Assembly: GCA_000004985.1 (NCBI GenBank)
Contig: GG738874.1
Direction: 5' to 3' (one strand)
DNA: 64,000 nt
Source: Naegleria gruberi
Lineage: Eukaryota
A program made the translations under genes and the position numbers. Below, in pieces: positions 6,783-52,011 of the stretch (positions within the stretch are counted from its first letter, which is position 1; each line of letters starts with the position of its first letter). A model generated the notes under the pieces. That model saw only the letters and a list, made by a program, of their open reading frames with translations. It was not told where the DNA came from and did no database searches.

Positions 6783-7477
6783 TTATTTCTTTTCACGTTT
6801 TTCCCTTTTGATTGTATCTGCTAACATATTTGCTATTTCAGATAATCTCTTATTTAACATTCCACTATTGGACGTTCCACCTAATATTGGAATAGAATAG
6901 GAAAATTGAACAGAGCTTTCTTTTGATTTTTTTAGTAATACATCCGAAGGAGCATTCAAAATTGGATCATAAAATAGTGGTGGAAGATTATCATCATCAA
7001 CTGTTGTTGCTTTCTTTGATGTTTTAGGCTTTGATCCCTTTGTTTTTTTCCTATTATTAAATCTTTCTATANAAATCATCCAATCCTAAANNNNNNNNNN
7101 NNNNNNNNNNNNNNNNNNNNNNNNNNNNNNNNNNNNNNNNGNATATGACACATAATAAACCATTTGATTAACAAGGAATGCAATGTCACTTAATTCCGAA
7201 TTAATATCTGGCAAAACAACATCAGTATCATAGGTTCCTCCAAAATTACAAAAGTTTCATCCTTAGGATCTCCAACAGACATTAAATCATATCGTTTTGT
7301 TGATGTGACTGTATAGAAAGGACTTCTCGGTATTGTTCGTTTTATTAATGTAAGTGAGGCTCTACTATTTTTTTGTGCAGCCAATTGTTGTTGTTGAAGT
7401 TGCTGCTGTTGTTGCAGGAGTAATTGTTGTTTGATTAATGAACTCATTTTTTTATGTAGTTTGTTTTGGCGGTTCAA
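6783..7477 (-). CDS. hypothetical protein interrupted by assembly gap (two ORF pieces, 7190–7477 and 6783–7079, with a poly-Q stretch at the N-terminus)
   Basis: Two minus-strand ORFs flank the N-run at 7091–7140. The upstream piece starts MSSLIKQQLLLQQQQQLQQQQ. Frame continuity across the gap cannot be verified. Confidence 0.3.
7091..7140. other. assembly gap (50 N; additional single N at 7072 and 7142)
   Basis: Literal n characters in the sequence. Confidence 0.95.
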
Positions 7478-38420: not shown

Positions 38421-39940
38421 TTAATTCTTAGTTTTCTTTTTTGATGAGGATTGTTGGTCTTTAGTGGATGGCTTTTTCCTCTTTTTTGGATCGTTCTCTC
38501 CTTGTACTGCTTGTTGTTGGGAGGAACTTTGTTGAGGTGGAATTGAGGATTGTTGCTGCGGAGGGACTGTAGGTTGATGCTGGTGTGAATGATGATGTGT
38601 TCGTTGGTGTGTATTGTTTGGATTATTTGGAGGAATTGGTTGCTGAGCATTAATGGGAGCCTGATTTTGAACTGGACGATCTGCATGAATGGTTTGATCA
38701 GGATAATTGTATTGTCTTTTTTCAAAACAGCTATTCCAATAATTATTTTTCATTTTCTTTTTAAAATATACTTACTAGGAATAATTCTTATTCTGTTCAA
38801 AGAGTCGATGTTTAAGGGCTTCAGATGCTGTTATTCTTTTTGATGGATCATAACACAATAGTTGTTTCAATAAATCCATCTCTGGTGAGTCAGGTGGTAG
38901 CTCTGTATGATTTTCCAAATTTGGTGTATATTTTGGTATAGTTCCAATCATTTGATAAAAATCCAAATCCTTAATTGTTGGCCAGTCTGCCTCTGTTGGA
39001 GTTCCAAGAACTGAAAATATTTTCTCCAATTGATCTCTTTGAAATTGTTCCTTATTGTTCTCTCTGCCTTCAAATATTGGTTTGGTAGTAATGAGCTCAT
39101 TAAAAATACATCCCAAACTCCAAATATCCACAGCTGGAGTGTAATGCTTAGCTCCAAGTAATAATTCAGGAGCTCTAATACATAGAATATTAATATTAAT
39201 ATCGAGTATCACATGAACACATACCTATACCAAATGGTGACAACAGGTCCATCATCTGCCAATTTCCTGAGTGGATCTTTAAATACACGAGCCAATCCAA
39301 AGTCAGCAATTTTTATAACACCTCTGTCATTACCTTCATCATGTATCAATATGTTTGCAGGTTTCTTTTCAAAATAAGTGTAAACTTCATTAATATAACT
39401 TACCAAATCTCTGTGTATCACCTAATTGAGATTAATAGAATATTCCACATTCTAACTTACCCATGCTTTGTGTAAATAATCCAATCCACATAGCATTTGA
39501 TACAATATTGACCTCACAACTCCTTTATCCAATTTAGGGTGTAGTCGTTTGTTATTCATATCCGTAATTTGTTTCTTATGATAATGCAATAATTTCTCCA
39601 AATCCAATTTACAATAAGGTGTTACCATGTAGAACAACCCATCAGATTTATCCAAAACAATATCTTTAACTTTTAGAATGTTGGGATGATCCAATTCCTT
39701 CAATAACTATAAAATTTAATCCAAATTGCCAACAACTGTTTTAACACTTACATTGATTTCTCTACAGATCGAGAAGGGAATACCTTCACTCTCTCTTGCC
39801 AATTTTAATTTGAATGATTTGATGGCCACTCTGTGACTTGTTGGAATTTCTTTTATATTTGATTAGTAACGAGATCCGATCGGAAATACCTACCTCTGGC
39901 CAATTTTACAATCTAACCCCATCATTAATATATTAAACAT
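38421..39940 (-). CDS. CDK8: cyclin-dependent kinase 8 (Mediator kinase module), 7 exons: 39895–39940, 39752–39837, 39461–39706, 39404–39421, 39225–39364, 38776–39178, 38421–38730
   Basis: The CDK8-specific signature is [18 protein letters not shown] (human SMSACREIALLRELKHPNV). HRDL|KPANIL is split by a 39-nt in-frame GTAAGT…AAAAG intron. The activation segment [35 protein letters not shown]|[12 protein letters not shown] matches human [47 protein letters not shown]. The C-terminus is Q/P-rich. Introns are 38–57 nt, and the track shows the pieces as separate ORFs. The first coding exon and glycine loop are not fully resolved. Confidence 0.8.
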
Positions 39941-42485: not shown

Positions 42486-45400
42486 TTACTTTTCTTCTGT
42501 CATGACAGTTTCATCTTGCTTGGAATCTTCAGAGGATGATTGTTGGTTCTTTTCCTTATTGAGATTTGGTCGTCTGAATCTTGATGATTTAGATTGATTG
42601 GCTGATTCCTCTTCCCTATCATTCGATTCCTCTTCATCAGTTTTAACTTTCTTATTTGGCCTTTCAATATCTGTACTCGATGGTGTAACAGCTTGATTAT
42701 CTTCGGAATTTTCGTTTTCATCATTCTTAAATTCGTCAATTGAACGTTTTCCTGTGAATTTTTCATCTTCTTGAGAACTTGATTGAGCAGGAGTAGTATT
42801 TACATTAGAAGTGGTAGCAGTAGGATTTACAGTTGTTGATTCAGAGGTAGAAGGTGAGGCTGAGGATGAAGCAACAGGTGGAGTTACAACAGGTTTGATT
42901 TGAAGTAAGAGTTGTGCACGAAGACTTTCCTTCACCTTTTCAGCAGCACTCTTCTTTTCTTCATCCTTTTTACGAAGCTCTTCCTTCTTTCGTTCCTCTT
43001 CTTTCTTACGAGCCTCTTCTTCTCTCTTTCGTTCTTCCTCCTTCTTTCGTTCTTCTTCCCTTCTTGTGGCTTCCTCCTTCTTTCGTTCTTCCTCCTTTTT
43101 ACGCTCCTCTTCTTTCTTTCTTTCTTCTTCCTTCTTTCGTTCTTCTTCTTTCTTTCTTTCTTCCTCTTTCTTTTTTTCTTCTTCATCATCTTGTTTTATG
43201 GATTCTTCCTTAGGTGGTTCATCTCTAGTGCTTGGAGAAACACTTTGCTCACCAACAGATTCAGTATTCTTAAGTTTTTCTTCCAATGCCGATTTTTCAT
43301 TCTTTAATGTTTCAATCTTGGCCTTTTGATTACGAAGAATATCCATCATCTTGTCTTTCTTTTCCAATAATTGAGTCTTTTCCTTTTCTAGCTCTGAATG
43401 TTCGGATGACAATTTTGAAAATTTAGACTCTGACTCAGAGTTCTTAGTTTCCAAAGAATTAATCTTTGTCTTGAAAGTGGAAATTTGAATGTTGAGATTT
43501 TGAATATCAATCTTAAGCTGTTTAACCTTTTGAACTTCTGTATTGTACAACTCTTCCTTTTCTTTGACAGATTCTTCAAGAGATGACTTTTCTTTCACCA
43601 ATCTATCATGAACCTCTGGGTCAATTTGCTTGAATTTTTCAACCAAGTGTTGAGCCTTATTTTGATACTTGATAACATCTTCTCTAAGAGTAGATATTTC
43701 CTCTTCCCTCATTTCCTTTTCCTTCCTAAGTTCAATGATAGTTTGATTCATTGGAGCCATTTGCTTTCTAACATCAGTGAGATCTTCTCTTGTTTGATTC
43801 AACATTCTGTTGAGTTGATCATTTTGCTGTCTTAATGAAATATTACTTTCCTTAAAGACTTGGACTTGCTCTTGAAGATCGGCAATTTGTTGTCCAGTAC
43901 GATCTTGCTCTTTGGTATGATTTTGGGCCTTTTCTCTTTCAGTTGATAGCTCTGCTTGGGCATTTGCAAGTTCCTTATAGGCATGCTCTAACTTTTGTTT
44001 AGTATTTTTGAGCTCTTGTTCTGAAATAGCGAGTTTAGATCTTAACATTTCCTTCTCCCTTCTTATGAAAGAAATTGTTTCTTGGAGGCCTAGTACTTCT
44101 TGTGCATTCTCGTGAGAAACATTGTCAGATGAAGATGGAATTGTATTATCTTGCACCTTCTTGAGTTGAATATTTAAAGTTTCAACTCTAGAGAAGGAAA
44201 TTTCCAATTGTCTTTCTAAGTCCTTAACTCTTTGCTCAATTTCGTCTTTTTGTTTGATCAAATCTTCGTTTTGAGTTGTGAGAAGTCCAACTTTTCTCTC
44301 TGTTTCAGTTTCTTGATTTTTAACTGTGTGGTTAGCAGTTTCGAGTGATGCTTGAAGATTTTTAATCTCCTCTTTCTTCTCTTTCAATACTTCGACAGTG
44401 GCAGCATGTCTCATGAGTTCTTGTTCATAATTTTCTTGGGAATCTTTCCAGAGTTGAGTGTGTCTTCTCAAATCTTCTTTCAAAACTTCGATTCTCTTTT
44501 CATAAGTTTCAGCATTAGTCTTATTTTCGTGACCAGTATTTTCGAGAAGTTGCTTTTCCTTCTTATTTTGTTCAATAGATTCATTAAGATCGTGCTTCAA
44601 CTTTTCAATATCATCTTCTCTTTGTTTGAGAGTATGTCTAAGTGAGTCGATTTCTTGCTTGAGATTGGAAATTTCTGATATAAGAGTTTGAGCCTTGGAT
44701 TCAGTTGAATGCTTGAATTTGTCATAAGTTTCTGTCATCTCCTTCAGAGATTGTTCGTTGCTTTCAGCAAGTTCCTTCATTGTTTGAACTTTGGATTTTT
44801 CGTTTTCAAGAGAATCCTTGAGATACTCGTTTTCGTTTTGAAGCTTTGTGAATTGTAATTGAAGCTCAGAAATATCTGTAGAGGCAGTTTCAACGGTAGA
44901 TAAACCTATCATCTTCTTTTCCAAAATCTTGTTTAATCTATCTTCAGCTGCATTCAACTTTTGTTGAAGATTAGTACACTTTTCCATTTCGAATTCATAA
45001 TTAGTTCTCAATCTAGTGACTTCATCCTTCAGCTTTTGTAATTCAGAAATCTTCTTTTCTAACTTTTCATTGCTTTCTTGCTCTTGCAATTCAAGTTGAA
45101 CTCTGAGTTCTTTAGAAAGTACTCTTTCATCATCAAGAGTATGTTTAAGTTGGCTAATTTCTGATTTAGCTGATTCAAGCTCTTGTTGAGTTCTCTTTCT
45201 ATCATTGTCGTCCTTTTGCTCAAGACCTACTTGGATCTTTTGTAAACTAGAATAGAATTCATCGCTTCTTTGCAGTTGTACTTTCAATCCTTCAATTTCA
45301 GAATTCAATCTCTCGGTTCTTTGCTCGTGATATAATTTTTCAGATCTAAGTTGGATAATTTCTCTTTCCAAGTTTCTTATTTGATCATCCTTTGCTTCAT

Positions 45401-47590
45401 ACAAAACTCTTTGCTTATCCATACTATTTTGAAGTGAAGAAATTGTTTTTGTCAGAGAATCATTAATATCTCTAACTCTATTCAACTCTTTCATACTATA
45501 ATCCCTTTCCATAGAAGTGCTTTGATTACTTTCCTTTAAAAATTCAACTTCAGAAGTTAAACGAGCAACACTAGAGTGGAGAGTTGTGATCTTATCATTC
45601 TTGAAAGCAATTTCATCTTGGAGAGCCTTCTTCTCTCTAGCAACTTCTTGTTGAAGCTCTCTAAAGTCTTTCAAGTTCATGAATTCTCTGTTTACATCTT
45701 GTGAAGCATTGGAAGATTTTTGGACAGGTTCTGGAGTTGAAGAGGATGTTGCACTCTTTTCTTCCAACAGTGATTTAAGAATATCTCTTTGTTTGATAAG
45801 AGCTTGAGTTTTTTCTTCTTGGCGTTTGCTTTCTCGTTTTAATTCCTCAACCTGTTTGAGAGCTTCAAGAATCTTTTCTTGGAAGTCTGCTGCCAATAGT
45901 TCTTGGGCATTCTTGGCTTCTTCTTCTTTTCTTGTGGCAAGATCTCTTATTGTGCCAAGGAGTTCTACATTTCTCTTTTGCAATTCATCAATATTATCAA
46001 AAGGTACTAATCTTTGAGTAATTACAGCATTAGCATCCATGTGAGAAGCAGATTCAACACTATAGTGATTTTCTCTCAATAAAGTTCTTACTTGTACAGA
46101 TAAATCTTCAGTAACTTTTTGAGCAGTAGTGAGAGACTTTTTAAGTTTATCCCTTTCGTTTCTAATGTCTATTAATTCGTCCTTCATAGATTGACATGTT
46201 TGAATGAGTTCTTGCTTTTGTTTTGTTAAAATAGTATATGAAGATCTAAGTTGTTCGTATTCCTCTCTCTGAGCTTGCATTATTGGAGCCTTTTCTTCTA
46301 AATCCTTTAATATTCCAGAAAGCACTTCATTTAATCTCTTGTTTTCATTTCTGGACTTTAGTAATTCATCACTAGTTTTTACAAACTTGGTGTAAATATC
46401 ACTAGGGCTAATACCTTGGTTAACTAGGGTTGATGCACGAAGTTGGGCATTTTGCTCCAAGTCGCGATTATGCTTGTTAATTTGTTCTTCCAATTGACGG
46501 ATTTTATCCTTTGATTGTCTTAGTTCTTGAGATATTTCTTCTCTTTCAGTTTCAAAGGTTTGATCCATTCTTTGTTTAGAATCCTTAAGTGTGGAAAGTT
46601 GTTTTTCAAGCTCTTTGATTTTATCTTCCAAATCCTCATGTCTATTTTTGTATAAATCGGATAACCTCTTTTCATTAGAAAGTTCCTCTTTTAACCTATC
46701 AATTTCTTCAAGGTGATTATTCTTACACTCTCTAATCTCGGTTATCTTTTGTTGGTACTTTTGTTGATATTCCTTGTTTGATTGTTCCAAAGAATTCAAT
46801 TTCTCAGTTAAACTAGTTATAGTTTCACTGTCTTTTGTTGCTTGTATTTGGAGGTCATTCAATTGAAGGATGTAATCCGATTTAAGCTTTGTATTTTGTT
46901 CTTGTTTTGATGAAAGCTCCGAGTTAAACCATTGATTTTGCTTTTCTAATGATTCCTTCTCTTGTTGTAGCTTCTCAATAGTAAACTTGAGAGGTAACAA
47001 AGATGAAGAAGTTTCTTGAAGCTTTTCCTCTAGTTCCTTTTTAGATTTAAAATGTTCAGTAATTTTTTGGTTAAGTGACTCGATATGTGCTGTATAGAAT
47101 ATACCAATCAATTAACTATTTAACATACAATTTAGATCATCAACTTCTTTAGTTTTCTTTTCTAATAGTGATGTTAATCTAGATTTTTCAATCTTTAGAT
47201 CTTCATTCTGGGTATTAGCTTGGTCCAACTCCATCCTTTGCTCGTGCCACCTCTTTTCCGCATCTTTAATTTGTTTTGTAAGATGGTCCAATTGTTCCTG
47301 GTAACTTTTGTTTTCGCTCTTGAAATGTTCAATCCTTTCCTTGAGAAGCTGACTATCTTCAAGTTTAGAATTTTCTTGTTGCTCAAATTTGTTCATCAGA
47401 GACTCGTTGGCGAGTCTGATTGTTTTAATTTCCTCTCTACATTCCAAAAGTTCATCGTCCTTTTTAGAAATATATTCTTGGGCCTTTTTAATAATTTCAA
47501 GAGGATTATTGCCGATTTGCTCTAGCTCCTCAGCTGTGAGAAAAGAAAGTTTGGATACTTCATCAGCAAGCGAGCGATCAACTATCGACA
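42486..47590 (-). CDS. TPR: nuclear-pore basket protein TPR/Mlp1-like giant coiled-coil protein (about 1700 aa), 2 exons joined by a 39-nt intron (47090–47128)
   Basis: Segments match human TPR: KAPIMQAQREEYEQLRSSYTILTKQKQEL vs [28 protein letters not shown], and ISFIRREKEMLRSKLAISEQEL vs [22 protein letters not shown]. The N-terminal exon (47129–47590, MSIVDRSLADE…) is joined through CTAAATT|GTATGT…TATACAG|CACAT, which restores the frame. The C-terminus is an (KKEEER)n tract followed by an S/T-rich and acidic tail. Confidence 0.75.
42955..43190 (-). repeat. coding tandem repeat (about 15-nt unit, about 14 copies) encoding an (E-E-R-K-K)n / ER-K-rich single-alpha-helix-like tract in the TPR-like protein
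   Basis: The plus strand shows a reiterated ttcttcc(t)tctttcg unit. The protein reads KKEEERKKEEERKKEEERKKEEERKKEEERKKEEATRREEERKKEEERKREEEARKKEEERKKEELRKKDEEKK. Confidence 0.75.
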
Positions 47591-48427
47591 TTTTTTTAAT
47601 GTGTTGTAAGATGATGAAGAATATTCTCATACAAGCATGGTACAAGTAATACAATCACATTGGATTGCCTATTATCATCAAATTGATTCTATCATTTTCA
47701 TTATTGAAGACGAAGGAAGTATTCATAACTGCCAGGAGGTCAAAGTTTTGCAACAACAACAACAAGACGAAACAGTCATGCTGATGTTAAAAATAACAAG
47801 ACAAACAAAAACAATCCGATTTTATTTAAAAAAATTTAGAAATAATTTTTCAATTTTTAATCAAATTTGGCTTTTCCGATATCATATTCCTTTCTCGTCC
47901 TCAATAAATTCAAGTCTTACCAGCAAGGAAAACTAGATTTTTCTTAAAAATCCAACCAAGAACCCAACTTTACTCAACAGTCATACTCGTTTGTTCATTT
48001 CAAGTTTATAATCTCTCCTGCAATTTGGTAGCAAAAACTCATTTTTGAAAAAAGCAGTTTACGCTCAAGCAAAACAACTATCATCAAGATTTAGCTTGAA
48101 AGCGTTCAAACAGCAAGCAAAACAATCATCTTCACCAAACAAACGGAAGAACCAGATTCCGCAACGCACCAAGTAGTAGATTATCAACCATTCTATTTGG
48201 ACTGTATTATAGTAGTAATAATAGTAGTAGTGGTGATTAATCATTGTTTTTCAAGTCTGTCTTGCTTTTTGAAATAATTTAAAGAGAATATTGTTAGCAG
48301 AAGGAATTTAAATATTGGGGAATCTGTATATACAAGATAATTGTACAATTAATTGATGAATCATCATTAGCCTTTGTAAATCTTCCAAACAATTTGTTTG
48401 TAAATTAATAATTATTAATCAATCATC

Positions 48428-50908
48428 ATGAAATCACAAAAAACCATTAGTATTCCCACTCCAACTCCAAAACGATCATCAAGAAATACCTCATCCGATG
48501 ATGACGATGATGATGATTCGGATTCATTGACTTTTAGTAGAAATCGTAATTATGGACCAACATCATCCTCACTCAACTCTTCCCTTTTCAAAAACACCTT
48601 ACTCAATAATAGAGAAGCCTATCAAAAACACAAATTACCTTCCCTTACCACCACAACAGCTCCCTCTCTTCCCAAAACACAACAAAAAACCACCAGATCT
48701 GCCTCAATAACAACCAACAATAGAAAACCATCTCCTTCCCTTCTTCAACCTCCTATTTCTTCGAGTTTGCTCACTCCAAACTTTCTAAGCAATACCAATA
48801 ATTTAAAAGACAGCGAGAAGTTATTACTTGATTTTGTTCAAGTATATGAAAAACAACAATCTCTCAAAAGTGCAAGTAGTGCCTCTAATTCATCAGATAA
48901 ATTGAGTGATGATGAAGATCCTTATTTAATTCTTTCTTCATCATTCAATCAAGGTGGATGGGAACACAGCTATTCAAAATTAGAAGAAGAAATATTAGAA
49001 AGTCCAACAATTACTGATCCAGGAAATTATAGTCAGAGCTTTCATTCAATTTCTGAAATTTCTAAAAACAAGCAAAATAAGAGAAATTGGTTCAGATTCA
49101 TGAAAATGGAAGGTGATTCACTTGAAGATTGTTCTGATGATGAATCATCTGCTCCACAAGTTGACAAAAAGGAGATTCTTCTTTTATTCTTGCTTCAACA
49201 TGCTGCCAATCAGTTAAATCCTGATATGGGATTCTTTGTATCATTATGTAAACATTTGACACATCTAGGATACTTTTCAAATAGAATGACAGACGAATCA
49301 TTCATCAAAACTCTATGTAAAGATTTCATGGAAGATATTACAAACATTTTCCCAGTATCAGCACTTGAGGTAGAAGAAACTAATAGAGGCATAGTTAGAT
49401 CAGAAAGTTATTCTTCCTATCTATCTGATATTCCTCATTCTCCAGGTGCAAATAGAGAGTTCTTTGGAGCTCTTGAAAGCTCACCAGTTATTGATTCCAT
49501 GTTTTATAATGCAAAGAGATTAGAATCTGATTATCATCATTTTCAAAAACTTGGAAAGGAGAAACCATACTCTTCTGTAATTAAAGCCATCCATAAGATA
49601 GATGGAAGAGCCTATGCCATCAAGAAGGTTAAATTTCACTTTTCAAATACTTTTGAGCTGGAACATGTGTATTCATATGTTGTAAATGAGATCAAAAATC
49701 TTGCTAAATTAGATAACGAGAATATTATTAGATATAACTCTGCTTGGTTCGAACCTTATAGAGACAACTCTTTACCATCACCCAGTGAGAAGAATTTATC
49801 ATGTTCTCATCCAGAATGTGGTTCTCCAATATGGAGTGATTCATATGTAAATAGTCTTAATATAGAAAATGACTTGAAAAATGAAAGTTTGGAATCCAAG
49901 GGTAAGAAGACGGATGTCGAGTTTGAGTTTACTCCAAAGAGAAAACCAGATATACCACCATCTCCTCCTCCTTCAATGTCCTACTTTGAATTTGCTCTCA
50001 AGAGAGGAAAAGAAACCTCAAAAAGAAAGAGTGAAAGTATTGATAGTACTACACGAGATATAACATCTAATGTAAAGTCAATGCTTCACGAAATGTTCAA
50101 TGTGAATAATCACTTTGAAATGGTACTTTATATTGTTATGCAACTTTGTGAAGGAACAACTCTTGAGAATTGGCTATTGCAGTCAGAAAAGAAAAAGAAT
50201 AGAAAGACCAACCTTATTGACATTTTGAAAATATTCAAAAGAATTGTCAAGGGAGTCTGTCACATTCACGAAAGAGGTCTTGTTCATAATAATTTGAAAC
50301 CAAACAATATCTTTGTAGCTTCAAATCATAGAATCAAAATTGCTGACTTTGGTGTTGCCAAATACTTACAGGAATGCTTGCTTAACCACAAGAAATGTAA
50401 GAACAAAGAATCTTCACCAAATAGAAAGAGATCTCATACATTTAGCGAGCAAGGATCTCTTTATGCCAGTCCAGAACAAATCTTCAATCAAAAATTTGAT
50501 CAAAAGGGAGATATTTATTCATTGGGAGTTATACTTTTTGAGTTGATATCTCCTCCATTTGTAACTACTACAGAGCGAGTTCATGTTCTTTCACAACTTA
50601 GAAAACGAGAAATATCAGAAGAAATGCTCAAATCTTTCCCAAGAGAAATTGAGATAATTAAGCAATGTTTAGACAAACCTAACAATAGGCCAACTGCTCC
50701 TGAACTCCTTCAGAAGGTAACAAGATTGATCAAAGCTTACAAGATTGAAGGTAGATTCTCCTCCTCGGGAGTATTTAAACACACAAATTCTAGCAGTAAT
50801 TTGCACTTTCCTTCTTTTGATACCATACGAGAAAAGAACAAAATTATTGAAGAGCAACAACGACAAATTGAGTTACTGAAAGAACAATTAAGAAAACAAC
50901 AACAATAA
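48428..50908 (+). CDS. eIF2-alpha kinase family (HRI/GCN2-like) kinase-domain homolog with catalytic-loop HRD to HNN substitution and degenerate Gly-loop (predicted pseudokinase), plus long S/T/D-rich N-terminal region
   Basis: 826 aa. The kinase core is LGKEKPYSSVIKAIHKIDGRAYAIKKV…(long insert)…MVLYIVMQLCEGTTLENWL…GLVHNNLKPNNIFVASNHRIKIADFGVAKYL…LYASPEQIFNQKFDQKGDIYSLGVILFELISPPF…ERVHVLSQLRKREI…FP. The insert and the ASPEQ, LGV and ERxxVLxxLR motifs are characteristic of eIF2AK (HRI) kinases. Confidence 0.65.
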   Translation: MKSQKTISIPTPTPKRSSRNTSSDDDDDDDSDSLTFSRNRNYGPTSSSLNSSLFKNTLLNNREAYQKHKLPSLTTTTAPSLPKTQQKTTRSASITTNNRKPSPSLLQPPISSSLLTPNFLSNTNNLKDSEKLLLDFVQVYEKQQSLKSASSASNSSDKLSDDEDPYLILSSSFNQGGWEHSYSKLEEEILESPTITDPGNYSQSFHSISEISKNKQNKRNWFRFMKMEGDSLEDCSDDESSAPQVDKKEILLLFLLQHAANQLNPDMGFFVSLCKHLTHLGYFSNRMTDESFIKTLCKDFMEDITNIFPVSALEVEETNRGIVRSESYSSYLSDIPHSPGANREFFGALESSPVIDSMFYNAKRLESDYHHFQKLGKEKPYSSVIKAIHKIDGRAYAIKKVKFHFSNTFELEHVYSYVVNEIKNLAKLDNENIIRYNSAWFEPYRDNSLPSPSEKNLSCSHPECGSPIWSDSYVNSLNIENDLKNESLESKGKKTDVEFEFTPKRKPDIPPSPPPSMSYFEFALKRGKETSKRKSESIDSTTRDITSNVKSMLHEMFNVNNHFEMVLYIVMQLCEGTTLENWLLQSEKKKNRKTNLIDILKIFKRIVKGVCHIHERGLVHNNLKPNNIFVASNHRIKIADFGVAKYLQECLLNHKKCKNKESSPNRKRSHTFSEQGSLYASPEQIFNQKFDQKGDIYSLGVILFELISPPFVTTTERVHVLSQLRKREISEEMLKSFPREIEIIKQCLDKPNNRPTAPELLQKVTRLIKAYKIEGRFSSSGVFKHTNSSSNLHFPSFDTIREKNKIIEEQQRQIELLKEQLRKQQQ

Positions 50909-50941: not shown

Positions 50942-52011
50942 TTAATCTTTCTTTTCTTTTCTTTCAATAAATTCACAACACAAAATGAACTTTAAAATTC
51001 TGAGAACGAATACTAAAATTACAATAGCAATCCACAAACCAAGTGATGCCAAATATCCAACAATATACTTGGTTGGATAGTATTCACAATCTTTGTAACT
51101 GTAATTGAATCCATCAGCAGACTTTTCAATTTCAAACAAACCAACATTACCACCAAAATCACCTTGAATTGATTTAACTGTAAATTCTTGAGCTCCTTCC
51201 TTGTGTGTATATTTACAACCAAAGTGATCATGACCATTGAAAATATATTTTGGTTTGAGTTGAGTAAGGATAACTTGTGATGTCTTTGGAGTTAAAAAGT
51301 TTTGCTCAATTGNNNNNNNNNNNNNNNNNNNNNNNNNNNNNNNNNNNNNNNNNNNNNNNNNNCCATACTGTTAATGGTTACAGCCAAAACCTTCCTATTT
51401 CCATTTTCATAAATGATATCTTTTCTATTTTGAACTCCAAAACTAGCAATAAATCTTTGAATTCTAAAGAAATTAGCTTCAAAACCATAACCAATATCAT
51501 GATTACCAGTTAAATTAACCAAATATGGGAAGTTTAAATTACGTAAATCAGAAGAACCTCTCTCTTTTACCATTCTTTGTTCTTCATGTAAATCTCCACT
51601 TCTCATCTTGAATATTCTATTCACAAAACCAAACATTCCAGAAAAGATTGAATTAAATCTATCAACTCTCAAATAAAATTCCTGATTAGAAACGTGTTGA
51701 GATGAGAATAAATCACCCAACATGTAAATTGCATCCGGTCTCAACAAGTAATGAATATTTTGGAATACCAATTTAAAATAATAATCGTTAAAGTAATTAT
51801 TGAGCAATCCATAATTTCCCTGATGATAAACTTTTGTATCTCCTTCCATTTGTGGATCCGCAATCATGGCAATTCTTCTTGAATTACTTTTTGACCAATG
51901 ACAACTCAATGGTGAAAAAGCCATATAACTTGTCATGTACATTAGAGACAAGCAATAAATTAAAGAAACAATCAGGATAAATTTAAAGCATCCCGAAGTT
52001 GTTGTTGACAT
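50942..52011 (-). CDS. Cdc1/Ted1/MPPE1(PGAP5)-like membrane metallophosphoesterase (GPI-anchor remodelling family), interrupted by assembly gap with apparent frame change
   Basis: An N-terminal signal/TM segment is followed by IAMIADPQMEGD (ADPQ motif), LTGNHDIGYG (GNHD) and, after the gap, NGHDHFGCKY (GHDH) and a C-terminal TM segment (LGLWIAIVILVFVL). The 5' piece 51292–52011 and the 3' piece 50942–51291 are in different frames on either side of the 50-N gap. Confidence 0.6.
51313..51362. other. assembly gap (50 N) inside the metallophosphoesterase gene
   Basis: Literal n characters. The X run in the track translation corresponds to this. Confidence 0.95.

What the first reader, a model, noticed from the sequence alone, without database searches (positions are those of the whole stretch)
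48428..50908. HRI-like eIF2α-kinase homolog predicted to be catalytically dead (HRD to HNN, degenerate Gly-loop)
The C-terminal half carries eIF2AK-specific features: a kinase insert between subdomains IV and V, LYASPEQ instead of APE, and ERVHVLSQLRK…FP near the C-terminus. However, the glycine loop is LGKEKPYSSV instead of GxGxxG, and the catalytic loop is HNNLKPNN instead of HRDLKPxN, so the catalytic Asp is lost. VAIK-Lys, αC-Glu and DFG are retained. This pattern is typical of pseudokinases that still bind substrate or ATP. It could act as a regulatory or decoy paralog in the integrated stress response, for example by competing for eIF2α or dimerising with an active eIF2AK. The long S/T/D-rich N-terminal region has no recognisable sensor domain (no haem-binding, RWD, HisRS-like or dsRBD).
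Basis: partly seen in the sequence, partly recalled or inferred. Interest (0 to 1): 0.55.

Follow-up and report, generated by a model that had tools for sequence, protein, structure and literature searches.

The report
Dead HRI-type eIF2α kinase paralogue
This Naegleria gruberi gene encodes a full-length copy of a stress-sensing eIF2α kinase that has lost its catalytic residues yet is strongly conserved next to an intact sister gene, so it most likely regulates that sister kinase rather than acting as an enzyme.

Summary
ORF 48428-50908 (+) is Naegleria gruberi XP_002676012.1, annotated 'eIF2-alpha kinase'. It reads HNNLKPNN where active kinases read HRDLKPxN, and LGKEKPYSSV where they read GxGxxG.

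The Asp-to-Asn change is neither an alignment artefact nor a sequencing error. N. lovaniensis, N. fowleri and a fourth Naegleria-clade sequence read HKN, HKN and HRN, each in an uninterrupted ORF. The same change made experimentally in yeast GCN2 (D835N, PDB 1zxe) is titled 'inactivating'.

New findings:
- An intact paralogue exists in N. gruberi (XP_002673550.1), N. fowleri and Willaertia magna. The duplication predates the Naegleria/Willaertia split.
- The Willaertia orthologue keeps HRD but has lost DFG, so catalysis is not what selection preserves.
- The gene is under strong purifying selection (dN/dS 0.07 overall, 0.005 in the N-lobe).
The protein also has a C-terminal coiled coil, giving the full HRI architecture.

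The dimer salt bridge, the eIF2α-docking helix αG and the regulatory motifs are retained. The best reading is a non-catalytic partner or competitor of the active paralogue. That mechanism is inferred, not shown.

The parts
48428..50908 (+). Complete single-exon ORF, 826 aa plus stop. It is N. gruberi XP_002676012.1 / EFC43268.1 / UniProt D2VIH6.
   Evidence: ORF listed. 100% identity and coverage to the NCBI protein.
48428..49162 (+). Low-complexity S/T/D-rich N-terminal tail (aa 1-245), predicted disordered and poorly conserved.
   Evidence: pLDDT below 50. About 25% identity between Naegleria species. The first 202 aa show dN/dS 0.13 in the close pair.
49163..49348 (+). HRI2_3H-like helical domain (aa 246-307). 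H258, C297 and K298 are invariant in the pseudokinase and active paralogues.
   Evidence: Helices at 247-263, 267-279 and 290-307. hhalign against 20 HRI2_3H domains (13 of them checked against Pfam): probability 95.7%, E 9e-9. hhalign against the active-paralogue N-terminal domain: 99.9%, E 4e-31. Invariant sites.
49391..49426 (+). Conserved linker motif IVRSESYSSYLS (aa 322-333), shared with the active paralogues.
   Evidence: R324, S325, E326, S327 and S330 are invariant in all 12 pseudokinase and active sequences.
49490..49762 (+). Kinase N-lobe (aa 355-445). It contains R364/D368 (dimer salt-bridge positions), K399 (beta3 Lys) and E421 (alphaC Glu).
   Evidence: Alignments. dN/dS 0.005.
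49550..49579 (+). Degenerate glycine-rich loop LGKEKPYSSV. Only the first Gly is kept, and there is a one-residue insertion.
49763..50107 (+). Kinase insert (aa 446-560). It is mostly disordered but holds the conserved motif SPPPSMSYFEFAL.
50108..50752 (+). Kinase C-lobe (aa 561-775).
   Evidence: Foldseek top hits are GCN2 and PERK, with target-normalised TM-scores of 0.79-0.87.
50285..50308 (+). Catalytic loop HNNLKPNN (aa 620-627). The catalytic Asp is replaced by N622 (AAT, 50291-50293). K624 and N627 are kept.
   Evidence: Equivalent to GCN2 D835N.
50345..50353 (+). DFG motif (aa 640-642). It is retained in Naegleria but is GFE in the Willaertia orthologue.
50441..50482 (+). End of the activation segment and P+1 loop, FSEQGSLYASPEQI. 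The family motif HTxGVGTxxYASPEQ is replaced, with a one-residue deletion. E674 and Q675 are invariant within Naegleria.
50552..50602 (+). alphaF-alphaG linker and helix alphaG, PPFVTTTERVHVLSQLR. T713, E716 and R717 are retained. This is the eIF2α-docking region of eIF2α kinases.
   Evidence: T713 and E716 are invariant and at least 90% conserved. The role of the equivalent PKR Thr487 is described in PMC11556786.
50816..50905 (+). C-terminal coiled-coil helix (aa 797-826).
   Evidence: AF2 helix 797-825 with pLDDT 83-92. It aligns with the C-terminal helices of the active paralogues and of HRI-type kinases. A coiled coil is part of the HRI architecture (PMC13181343).

Best explanation
The gene encodes a stand-alone, full-length pseudokinase derived from an HRI-type eIF2α kinase.

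Origin. In the common ancestor of Naegleria and Willaertia, an active HRI-like kinase gene duplicated. That ancestral architecture was a disordered tail, an HRI2_3H helical domain, a split kinase domain with an insert, and a C-terminal coiled coil. One copy stayed catalytically canonical (in N. gruberi, XP_002673550.1 / NAEGRDRAFT_58976).

Decay of the other copy. It first lost the second and third Gly-loop glycines and the activation-loop Thr/GVGT motif. It then lost a catalytic Asp independently in each lineage: the HRD Asp in Naegleria (H[N/K/R]N) and the DFG Asp in Willaertia.

What purifying selection has kept is everything needed to be recognised as an HRI-type protomer:
- the N-terminal helical domain;
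- the RSES linker motif and the insert motif;
- the N-lobe back-to-back dimer positions (R364/D368, D392/Y396);
- the eIF2α-docking helix alphaG (T713/E716/R717);
- the coiled coil.

Most likely mechanism (inferred). The protein pairs with the active paralogue, or competes with it, for the same dimer interface, the same upstream ligands and eIF2α. This would set the gain of eIF2α phosphorylation. A damping, dominant-negative-like effect is the more likely direction. An allosteric activating role, as in HER3 or the GCN2 pseudokinase domain, cannot be excluded.

Shown here: homology, architecture, lesions, their conservation, the paralogue, the timing of the duplication, and purifying selection.
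Inferred: loss of activity, heterodimerisation or competition, and the direction of the effect.
For: Family placement. The best PDB hits are HRI, GCN2, PERK and PKR (E 6.5e-37 to 1.8e-27), against about 4e-16 for other kinases. Foldseek top hits are the GCN2 and PERK kinase domains.

Lesions.
- HNN/HKN/HKN/HRN in four Naegleria-clade sequences.
- Gly loop GK[E/S/A]KP[Y/F]S.
- HTxGVGT is lost in all five pseudokinase orthologues.
- PDB 1zxe, titled 'GCN2 D835N Inactivating Mutant', reads HRNLKP where the wild type reads HRDLKP.
- A PKR deep mutational scan names Gly276, Gly277, Gly450 and Thr451 among the few highly constrained sites (PMC11556786). Those are the positions altered here.

Paralogue and history.
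- An exhaustive HMMER search finds canonical relatives in N. gruberi, N. fowleri, W. magna and Acrasis kona.
- In an NJ tree (510 columns, 100 bootstraps), the pseudokinase clade has 100% support. The clade of pseudokinases plus Naegleria/Willaertia active copies also has 100%, with Acrasis outside.
- The Willaertia orthologue keeps HRD but has GFE for DFG and no Gly loop.

Selection.
- dN/dS between N. lovaniensis and the N. fowleri-type sequence is 0.074 overall, 0.005 in the N-lobe, 0.052 in the C-lobe and 0.063 across residues 203-340, which contain the helical domain, at dS 0.77.
- N. gruberi versus N. fowleri identity in the C-lobe is 0.75, against 0.74 for the active paralogue.

Retained surfaces. 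R364, D368, D392, Y396, K399, E421, K624, N627, E716 and R717 are invariant across the pseudokinase and active sets. T713 is invariant. The R262-D266 salt bridge of PKR is described as strictly conserved and needed for dimerisation (PMC6467004).

Architecture. The HRI2_3H-like domain is supported, and the coiled coil. Both match the HRI domain plan in PMC13181343.
Against: - No experiment or expression data were available.
- In the four Naegleria proteins the beta3 Lys, alphaC Glu, catalytic-loop Asn and DFG Asp are all retained. Nucleotide binding, and some residual HER3-like activity, therefore cannot be excluded.
- Heterodimerisation with the active paralogue is inferred from shared interface residues only. 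No complex was modelled, because the tools predict single chains and return no coordinates.
- The pseudokinase evolves faster than the active copy between Naegleria and Willaertia (about 50% against 72% identity in the C-lobe). This could mean it has moved to a new function.
- The mapping of R364/D368 to PKR R262/D266 rests on my own count from the remembered PKR sequence.
- I did not verify that Naegleria eIF2α keeps Ser51.
Confidence: 0.6

Rival explanations
1. It is still an enzyme: a low-activity or mechanistically atypical kinase, as reported for HER3 (HRN) or JAK2 JH2 (HGN). It would phosphorylate eIF2α or itself using the retained Lys, Glu, Asn and DFG residues.
For: K399, E421, K624, N627 and D640 are conserved in all four Naegleria-clade sequences. 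The N-lobe, including the altered Gly loop, is under extreme constraint (dN/dS 0.005). That is compatible with a preserved nucleotide pocket.
Against: The identical substitution inactivates GCN2. The Gly loop carries a Pro insertion and lacks two glycines. The activation-loop Thr and the GT motif are gone. The Willaertia orthologue has lost the DFG Asp instead, so no single catalytic residue set is conserved across the clade.
Confidence: 0.13
2. It is a pure substrate decoy. It binds and sequesters eIF2α through helix alphaG, independently of the active paralogue, much as viral K3L shields eIF2α kinases from their substrate but acting from the kinase side.
For: T713, E716 and R717 of the alphaG region, and the SPEQ P+1 motif, are retained in all five pseudokinase orthologues.
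Against: eIF2α is very abundant, so stoichiometric sequestration by a signalling-level protein is unlikely (general knowledge). The dimer positions, N-terminal domain, linker and insert motifs and coiled coil are equally conserved. That is not explained by a substrate-only role.
Confidence: 0.12
3. It has been neofunctionalised as a scaffold outside the eIF2α pathway. The kinase fold would be reused as an interaction module for unrelated partners.
For: The stem branch is long, and divergence between Naegleria and Willaertia is faster than for the active copy. Six sites are fixed differently in the pseudokinase and active clades.
Against: The family-specific regulatory elements and the eIF2α-docking residues remain invariant. 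A scaffold that had left the pathway would be expected to lose them.
Confidence: 0.12
4. It is a decaying pseudogene, an assembly error, or a mis-annotated gene whose real mRNA splices in an HRD-containing exon.
For: A single G-to-A change would turn GAT into the observed AAT. The genome does have short introns.
Against: Uninterrupted ORFs of 826-877 aa occur in four Naegleria-clade assemblies, three checked in conserved synteny, plus an 843-aa Willaertia orthologue annotated in NCBI. Asn codons are present in three other assemblies. dN/dS is 0.074. No HRD-type loop is encoded in any frame of the window. The alignment to homologues is gap-free through the catalytic loop.
Confidence: 0.02

Closest known systems
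HRI (EIF2AK1) and fungal or protist HRI-type kinases (S. pombe Hri1/Hri2; Pfam HRI2_3H plus Pkinase)
   Same: The domain plan is the same: an N-terminal helical (HRI2_3H) domain, a split kinase domain with a long insert, and a C-terminal coiled coil. HRI is the best PDB sequence hit. The N-lobe dimer positions and the alphaG Thr/Glu/Arg are conserved.
   Different: The catalytic Asp, two Gly-loop glycines and the activation-loop Thr (human T488) are absent. There are no CP haem-regulatory motifs. The mammalian haem ligands H119/H120 are not conserved. The helix1-helix2 loop of the three-helix domain is four residues shorter. Pfam's own HRI2_3H model does not reach threshold on this protein.
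The intact paralogue in the same genome (N. gruberi XP_002673550.1; N. fowleri XP_044558044.1; W. magna KAL9648782.1)
   Same: It shares the N-terminal domain (hhalign 99.9%, E 4e-31), the RSES linker motif, the insert motif, the coiled coil and 91 invariant positions. It is the sister clade with 100% bootstrap support.
   Different: The paralogue has the canonical IG[R/K]GAFG, HRDLKPSN, DFG and HTxGVGT motifs. It is about 47-48% identical to the pseudokinase in both kinase lobes.
Pseudokinase domain of GCN2
   Same: It is a catalytically inactive kinase-fold module of the eIF2α-kinase world that regulates an active eIF2α kinase domain (PMC12867742, PMC4014428).
   Different: The GCN2 pseudokinase domain sits inside the same polypeptide as the active domain, next to RWD and HisRS-like domains. 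Here the pseudokinase is a separate gene with HRI-type architecture. Its kinase domain aligns with the active GCN2 domain (110.5 bits) and not with the pseudokinase domain (9.5 bits).
Baculovirus PK2
   Same: It is a catalytically inert eIF2α-kinase homologue that inhibits an HRI-like kinase by binding it directly (bioRxiv 10.1101/2025.02.05.636571; PMC6467004).
   Different: PK2 is viral, is a C-lobe-only mimic with an N-terminal extension, and does not bind eIF2α. The Naegleria protein is cellular and full length, with an N-lobe, a sensor-type domain and a coiled coil.
Pseudokinase partners of active paralogues with an HxN catalytic loop (HER3 with EGFR/HER2; JAK JH2 with JH1)
   Same: The catalytic Asp is replaced by Asn while Lys and DFG are retained. 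The function is exerted through dimerisation with an active relative (general knowledge).
   Different: These belong to unrelated kinase families in metazoans and keep largely intact Gly loops. No evidence yet shows that the Naegleria protein activates its partner.

Membership tests
Eukaryotic protein kinase superfamily (Pfam PF00069) | Significant match to the protein kinase domain profile and a bilobal kinase fold | tested here: met
   Pkinase E 4.6e-36, 125 bits against a cut-off of 31.7. The AF2 model superposes on GCN2 and PERK kinase domains with target-normalised TM-scores of 0.79-0.87.
eIF2α kinase (PEK) family | Kinase domain closest in sequence to HRI, GCN2, PERK and PKR rather than to other kinase families | tested here: met
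   E 6.5e-37 to 1.8e-27 for the four eIF2α kinases, against about 4e-16 for the next family.
eIF2α kinase (PEK) family | Insert between beta4 and beta5 of the N-lobe | tested here: met
   Residues 446-560 are an insert relative to PDB kinase cores, and the region is disordered in AF2.
eIF2α kinase (PEK) family | [quoted passage not shown] | tested here: met
   R364 and D368 are invariant in all relatives aligned. The feature is described in PMC6467004. The positional equivalence comes from my own count of the PKR sequence.
eIF2α kinase (PEK) family | Helix alphaG Thr (PKR Thr487) and the ER motif used for eIF2α recognition | tested here: met
   T713, E716 and R717 are conserved. The role of Thr487 is described in PMC11556786.
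eIF2α kinase (PEK) family | Catalytic competence: GxGxxG, the HRD Asp, and the activation-loop Thr and GT motif | tested here: not met
   The motifs read GKEKPYS, HNN and EQGS-LY. The protein is therefore a member by descent but not by enzymatic definition.
eIF2α kinase (PEK) family | Phosphorylates eIF2α on Ser51 | not testable with these tools
   This needs a biochemical assay.
HRI subfamily | N-terminal HRI2_3H helical domain (core of the haem-binding domain) | tested here: met
   hhalign of the five pseudokinase N-terminal domains against 20 HRI2_3H domains gives probability 95.7%, E 9e-9, over 62 columns. Ten of the 20 were confirmed by Pfam and three. Family member P0024 passes Pfam's own threshold (27.9 bits). 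Caveat: Pfam hmmscan on this protein alone finds nothing.
HRI subfamily | C-terminal coiled coil | tested here: met
   A helix at 797-825 with pLDDT 83-92 aligns with the C-terminal helices of HRI-type hits. The feature is listed in PMC13181343.
HRI subfamily | Haem ligands (human H75, H119/H120) and CP haem-regulatory motifs | tested here: inconclusive
   H258 occupies the column where many HRI2_3H domains have His. By my memory of the human sequence this is human H75. The H119/H120 columns hold C297/K298. No CP motif exists in any pseudokinase or conserved in the active paralogues.
HRI subfamily | Haem binding and haem-regulated activity | not testable with these tools
   This needs spectroscopy or biochemistry.
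Pseudokinase (operational class) | Kinase fold lacking at least one of the beta3 Lys, the HRD Asp or the DFG Asp | tested here: met
   The HRD Asp is replaced by Asn in four Naegleria-clade sequences. The DFG Asp is replaced in the Willaertia orthologue.
GCN2 pseudokinase domain | Lies within a GCN2 polypeptide between the RWD domain and the active kinase domain | tested here: not met
   Pfam finds no RWD or HisRS-like domain. The match to the GCN2 pseudokinase domain scores only 9.5 bits, against 110.5 bits for the active domain.
Baculovirus PK2-type mimic | C-lobe-only eIF2α-kinase mimic with an N-terminal extension | tested here: not met
   A full N-lobe with beta3 Lys and alphaC Glu is present. 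The PK2 architecture is described.

The most novel reading that the evidence does not exclude
This would be the first stand-alone cellular pseudokinase of the eIF2α-kinase family. It would act as an obligate or conditional regulatory subunit that heterodimerises with the active HRI-type paralogue. The contacts would be the N-lobe back-to-back interface, the three-helix domain and the coiled coil. It would set the threshold of the integrated stress response in Naegleria and Willaertia, including the pathogen N. fowleri. The pair would be a natural dead/live eIF2α-kinase dimer, and so a ready-made system for asking whether activation of this kinase family works in cis or in trans.
Probability: 0.4. 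Interest if true: 0.6.

Novelty: new variant of a known kind. Interest (0 to 1): 0.42.

Why it matters
- **A new kind of inactive relative.** eIF2α kinases are the entry points of the integrated stress response. The non-catalytic relatives I am aware of in this family are the internal pseudokinase domain of GCN2 and the viral C-lobe mimic PK2. A full-length cellular HRI-type pseudokinase, kept under strong selection beside its active sister, would add a third mode of regulation.
- **A natural experiment on activation.** The dead/live pair could show whether dimer-driven activation of this family is allosteric or works by trans-phosphorylation. It could also address HRI regulation, which a 2026 review describes as still poorly understood (PMC13181343).
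- **Pathogen relevance.** The gene is present in the pathogen N. fowleri, where stress and encystment pathways are of practical interest.
- **Annotation.** The database name 'eIF2-alpha kinase' over-states the function of this protein.

Tried and rejected
- **Pfam on the N-terminal region.** hmmscan of the whole protein and of the isolated region from three species found no HRI2_3H match. A first hhalign with only four against three sequences gave a correctly placed but weak match (probability 7%, E 0.005). The homology became clear only after the exhaustive search supplied diverse relatives.
- **AlphaFold database.** The afdb50 library was not available. A structural comparison with HRI N-terminal models could not be done.
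- **Selection using the N. gruberi sequence.** dS is saturated in nearly every pairwise comparison that includes N. gruberi, and the few finite values are unreliable. Only the N. lovaniensis / N. fowleri-type pair is informative.
- **Literature.** Searches for Naegleria eIF2 kinases, GCN2, pseudokinases and the gene or protein identifiers found nothing on this protein.
- **Rejected explanations.** A hidden HRD exon or frame, a sequencing error, a pseudogene, and membership of the GCN2 pseudokinase domain or PK2 groups.
- **Not attempted.** Active-site geometry, because the structure tool returns no coordinates. An inventory of other eIF2α kinases (GCN2- or PERK-type) in N. gruberi. A check of Ser51 in Naegleria eIF2α.
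Full report
**Observation.** The window carries one uninterrupted 826-codon ORF at 48428-50908 on the + strand.
- LGKEKPYSSV, nt 49550-49579.
- YAIKK, with K399.
- VVNEIK, with E421.
- LVHNNLKPNNIF. The HNN codons are CAT AAT AAT, and N622 lies at 50291-50293.
- IADFGV.
- SLYASPEQ.
- TTTERVHVLSQLRK.

Pfam's protein kinase model matches at E 4.6e-36. Against all PDB chains the best hits are HRI (6.5e-37), GCN2, PERK and PKR. After these there is a gap of about eleven orders of magnitude to the next kinase families. HMMER aligns HNN under the HRD of HRI and GCN2, and LGKEKPYSS under LGKG-GYGR.

[quoted passage not shown] Orthologues occur in N. lovaniensis (P0002), in N. fowleri (XP_044565002.1, in the 90% cluster of P0003) and in an environmental Naegleria-clade contig (P0004). 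All are single uninterrupted ORFs. The same neighbours are present: a large TPR/Mlp1-type gene lies upstream on the opposite strand.

**The lesions are real and conserved.**
- The four Naegleria-clade sequences read HNN, HKN, HKN and HRN. The Asn codons are AAT, AAT, AAT and AAC in independent assemblies.
- The Gly loop is GK[E/S/A]KP[Y/F]S. Only the first glycine is kept and one residue is inserted.
- The family-wide activation-segment motif HTxGVGTxxYASPEQ is replaced by EQ[G/S/A]S-LYASPEQ, with a one-residue deletion.
- No other frame and no other place in the window encodes an HRD-type loop. The alignment runs gap-free through the catalytic loop.
- The PDB holds yeast GCN2 with this same substitution. 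Entry 1zxe is titled 'D835N Inactivating Mutant' and reads IIHRNLKPMN where the wild type reads IIHRDLKPMN.
- A deep mutational scan of PKR lists Gly276/Gly277 (Gly loop) and Gly450/Thr451 (activation loop) among the few highly constrained positions (PMC11556786). By alignment these are the positions altered here.

Still present are K399, E421, K624, N627, D640-F-G and the SPE motif.

- AF2 predicts three to four helices at 247-307 and a long C-terminal helix at 797-825.
- Pfam does not recognise the N-terminal helices directly.
- An exhaustive HMMER search with the Naegleria profile recovered a graded family that shares the motif K[K/R]E.L.LFLLQH..RQ.NPDP.FF..C..L...GYL.
- One member of that family (P0024) passes Pfam's threshold for PF22949, HRI2_3H, the 'Heme-regulated eIF-2-alpha kinase, helical domain' (27.9 bits).
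- I compared the five pseudokinase N-terminal domains with 20 HRI2_3H domains by profile-profile alignment. The result was probability 95.7%, E 9e-9, over 62 columns. Thirteen of the 20 domains were checked against Pfam.
- Against the N-terminal domain of the active paralogues the result was 99.9%, E 4e-31.

A 2026 review gives the HRI plan as a haem-binding domain, N-lobe, insert, C-lobe and coiled coil, forming an obligate dimer, with an essential activation-loop Thr488 (PMC13181343). The Naegleria protein has every module but lacks the Thr.

Haem regulation should not be assumed. There are no CP motifs, and the mammalian H119/H120 columns hold C297/K298. H258 does sit in a column where many HRI domains have His. 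By my recollection of the human sequence, that column is H75.

**Evolution.** The top hits of the exhaustive search include canonical relatives with intact GxGxFG, HRD, DFG and HTxGVGT motifs:
- N. gruberi XP_002673550.1 (NAEGRDRAFT_58976, 931 aa).
- N. fowleri XP_044558044.1.
- Willaertia magna KAL9648782.1.
- Acrasis kona KAL0486766.1.

I built a neighbour-joining tree on 510 columns with 100 bootstraps.
- The pseudokinase clade (four Naegleria sequences plus W. magna KAL9653862.1) has 100% support.
- Its union with the Naegleria and Willaertia active copies also has 100% support.
- Acrasis and environmental relatives fall outside.

The duplication therefore predates the Naegleria/Willaertia split.

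The Willaertia pseudokinase orthologue keeps HRD but reads GFE for DFG and has no Gly loop at all. The lesions shared by all five orthologues are the loss of the Gly-loop glycines and of HTxGVGT. These probably came first, and the catalytic Asp residues were then lost independently. That pattern is what one expects when catalysis is no longer under selection.

**The gene is not decaying.**
- Between N. lovaniensis and the N. fowleri-type sequence (dS 0.77), dN/dS is 0.074 overall, 0.005 in the N-lobe, 0.052 in the C-lobe and 0.063 across residues 203-340, which contain the helical domain.
- Within Naegleria the pseudokinase C-lobe is as conserved as that of the active paralogue (0.75 against 0.74 identity).
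- Ninety-one positions are invariant across five pseudokinase and seven active sequences. They include:
  - R364/D368. By spacing from the first Gly-loop glycine these match the PKR R262-D266 salt bridge, which is called strictly conserved and required for dimerisation in PMC6467004.
  - D392/Y396. From memory, these correspond to PKR D289/Y293 of the same interface.
  - E716/R717 in the alphaG region. The neighbouring T713 is also conserved.
  - H258, C297 and K298 in the N-terminal domain.
  - A linker motif, RSES..S.
  - Residues of an insert motif, SP....Y.

**Mechanism (inferred).** The protein has kept what lets an HRI-type protomer be recognised by ligands or partners of the N-terminal domain, by a dimer partner, and by eIF2α. 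It has lost what lets such a protomer catalyse. The simplest model is a non-catalytic partner or competitor of the active paralogue.

Kinase-dead eIF2α-kinase mutants are classically dominant negative (general knowledge). I therefore favour damping of eIF2α phosphorylation. An activating allosteric role, as for HER3 or the GCN2 pseudokinase domain, is not excluded.

My confidence that this is a selected, catalytically impaired pseudokinase paralogue of an HRI-type kinase is about 0.85. My confidence in the specific partner/competitor mechanism is about 0.45.

**Rivals.**
- Residual atypical activity. The retained Lys, Glu, Asn and DFG in Naegleria speak for it. GCN2 D835N and the different lesion in Willaertia speak against it.
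- A pure eIF2α decoy.
- A scaffold that has left the pathway.
- A pseudogene or artefact, which refute.

**Comparison with known systems.** By descent and architecture the protein belongs to the HRI-type branch of the eIF2α-kinase family. By the enzymatic definition it fails (see the membership table). It is not the GCN2 pseudokinase domain: it is a separate gene, has no RWD or HisRS-like domains, and aligns with the active GCN2 domain. It is not PK2-like either, because PK2 is viral and C-lobe only. I found no paper on this protein or on a stand-alone eIF2α-kinase pseudokinase in the searchable library. That is absence of evidence only.

**Assessment.** This is a sound and somewhat extended finding: a new variant (catalytically dead, stand-alone, conserved) of a well-known kind. 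Pseudokinases are common, about a tenth of many kinomes by general knowledge. A specialist would be interested rather than astonished. The value lies in the natural dead/live HRI-type pair and its presence in N. fowleri.

**Limits.**
- There are no expression data, no coordinates for active-site geometry and no complex modelling.
- The tree is distance-based.
- Some residue equivalences (PKR and human HRI numbering) rest on my memory of those sequences.
- I made no inventory of other eIF2α kinases and did not check eIF2α Ser51 in Naegleria.

Noticed in passing
window 42486-47654 (-): A TPR/Mlp1-type nuclear-basket nucleoporin gene appears as two abutting ORFs of 180 and 1541 aa. They are separated by a roughly 41-nt GTATGT...ACAG intron near 47075-47115 that carries the in-frame stop. 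The orthologous gene in N. lovaniensis has Pfam TPR_MLP1_2 hits.
   Followed up: partly
window 51292-52011 (-), N run 51313-51362; also 7072-7142: A 50-N assembly gap interrupts the downstream ORF, which is metallophosphatase-like in the N. lovaniensis locus L003. Further N runs lie at 7072, 7091-7140 and 7142.
   Followed up: no
window 38775-39212 (-): This is an exon-like ORF encoding a CDK/MAPK-like kinase C-lobe ([24 protein letters not shown]...). It is unrelated to the eIF2α-kinase family and is the only other kinase similarity in the window.
   Followed up: no
window 49391-49426 and about 49961-49999 (+): Two short motifs outside the kinase core contain residues invariant in both the pseudokinase and the active paralogues. 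They are IVRSESYSSYLS (linker, aa 322-333) and SPPPSMSYFEFAL (kinase insert, aa 512-524). They are candidate docking or phosphorylation sites shared by both proteins.
   Followed up: partly
P0015 (Willaertia magna KAL9653862.1): The Willaertia orthologue of the pseudokinase has a different set of lesions. HRD is intact, DFG reads GFE, and the Gly loop is replaced by INPSKQVPLHPSS.
   Followed up: yes
P0017 (N. gruberi XP_002673550.1): The active paralogue of N. gruberi reads YASLEQ where every other family member reads YASPEQ. This may be a real substitution in the APE-equivalent motif or an error in that gene model.
   Followed up: no
window 49199-49201 (H258) and 49316-49321 (C297-K298): H258, C297 and K298 of the three-helix domain are invariant in all 12 pseudokinase and active sequences. 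H258 lies in the column where many HRI domains have His. C297/K298 lie, by my recollection of the human sequence, where human HRI has the haem ligands H119/H120. No CP motifs are present. This may hint at a ligand site different from that of mammalian HRI.
   Followed up: partly
P0019-P0035, P0055 (metagenome and Logan contigs): Many unnamed environmental proteins share the heterolobosean-type N-terminal domain, with its four-residue-shorter loop, together with canonical kinase motifs. This suggests a broad, undescribed protist branch of HRI-type kinases.
   Followed up: partly
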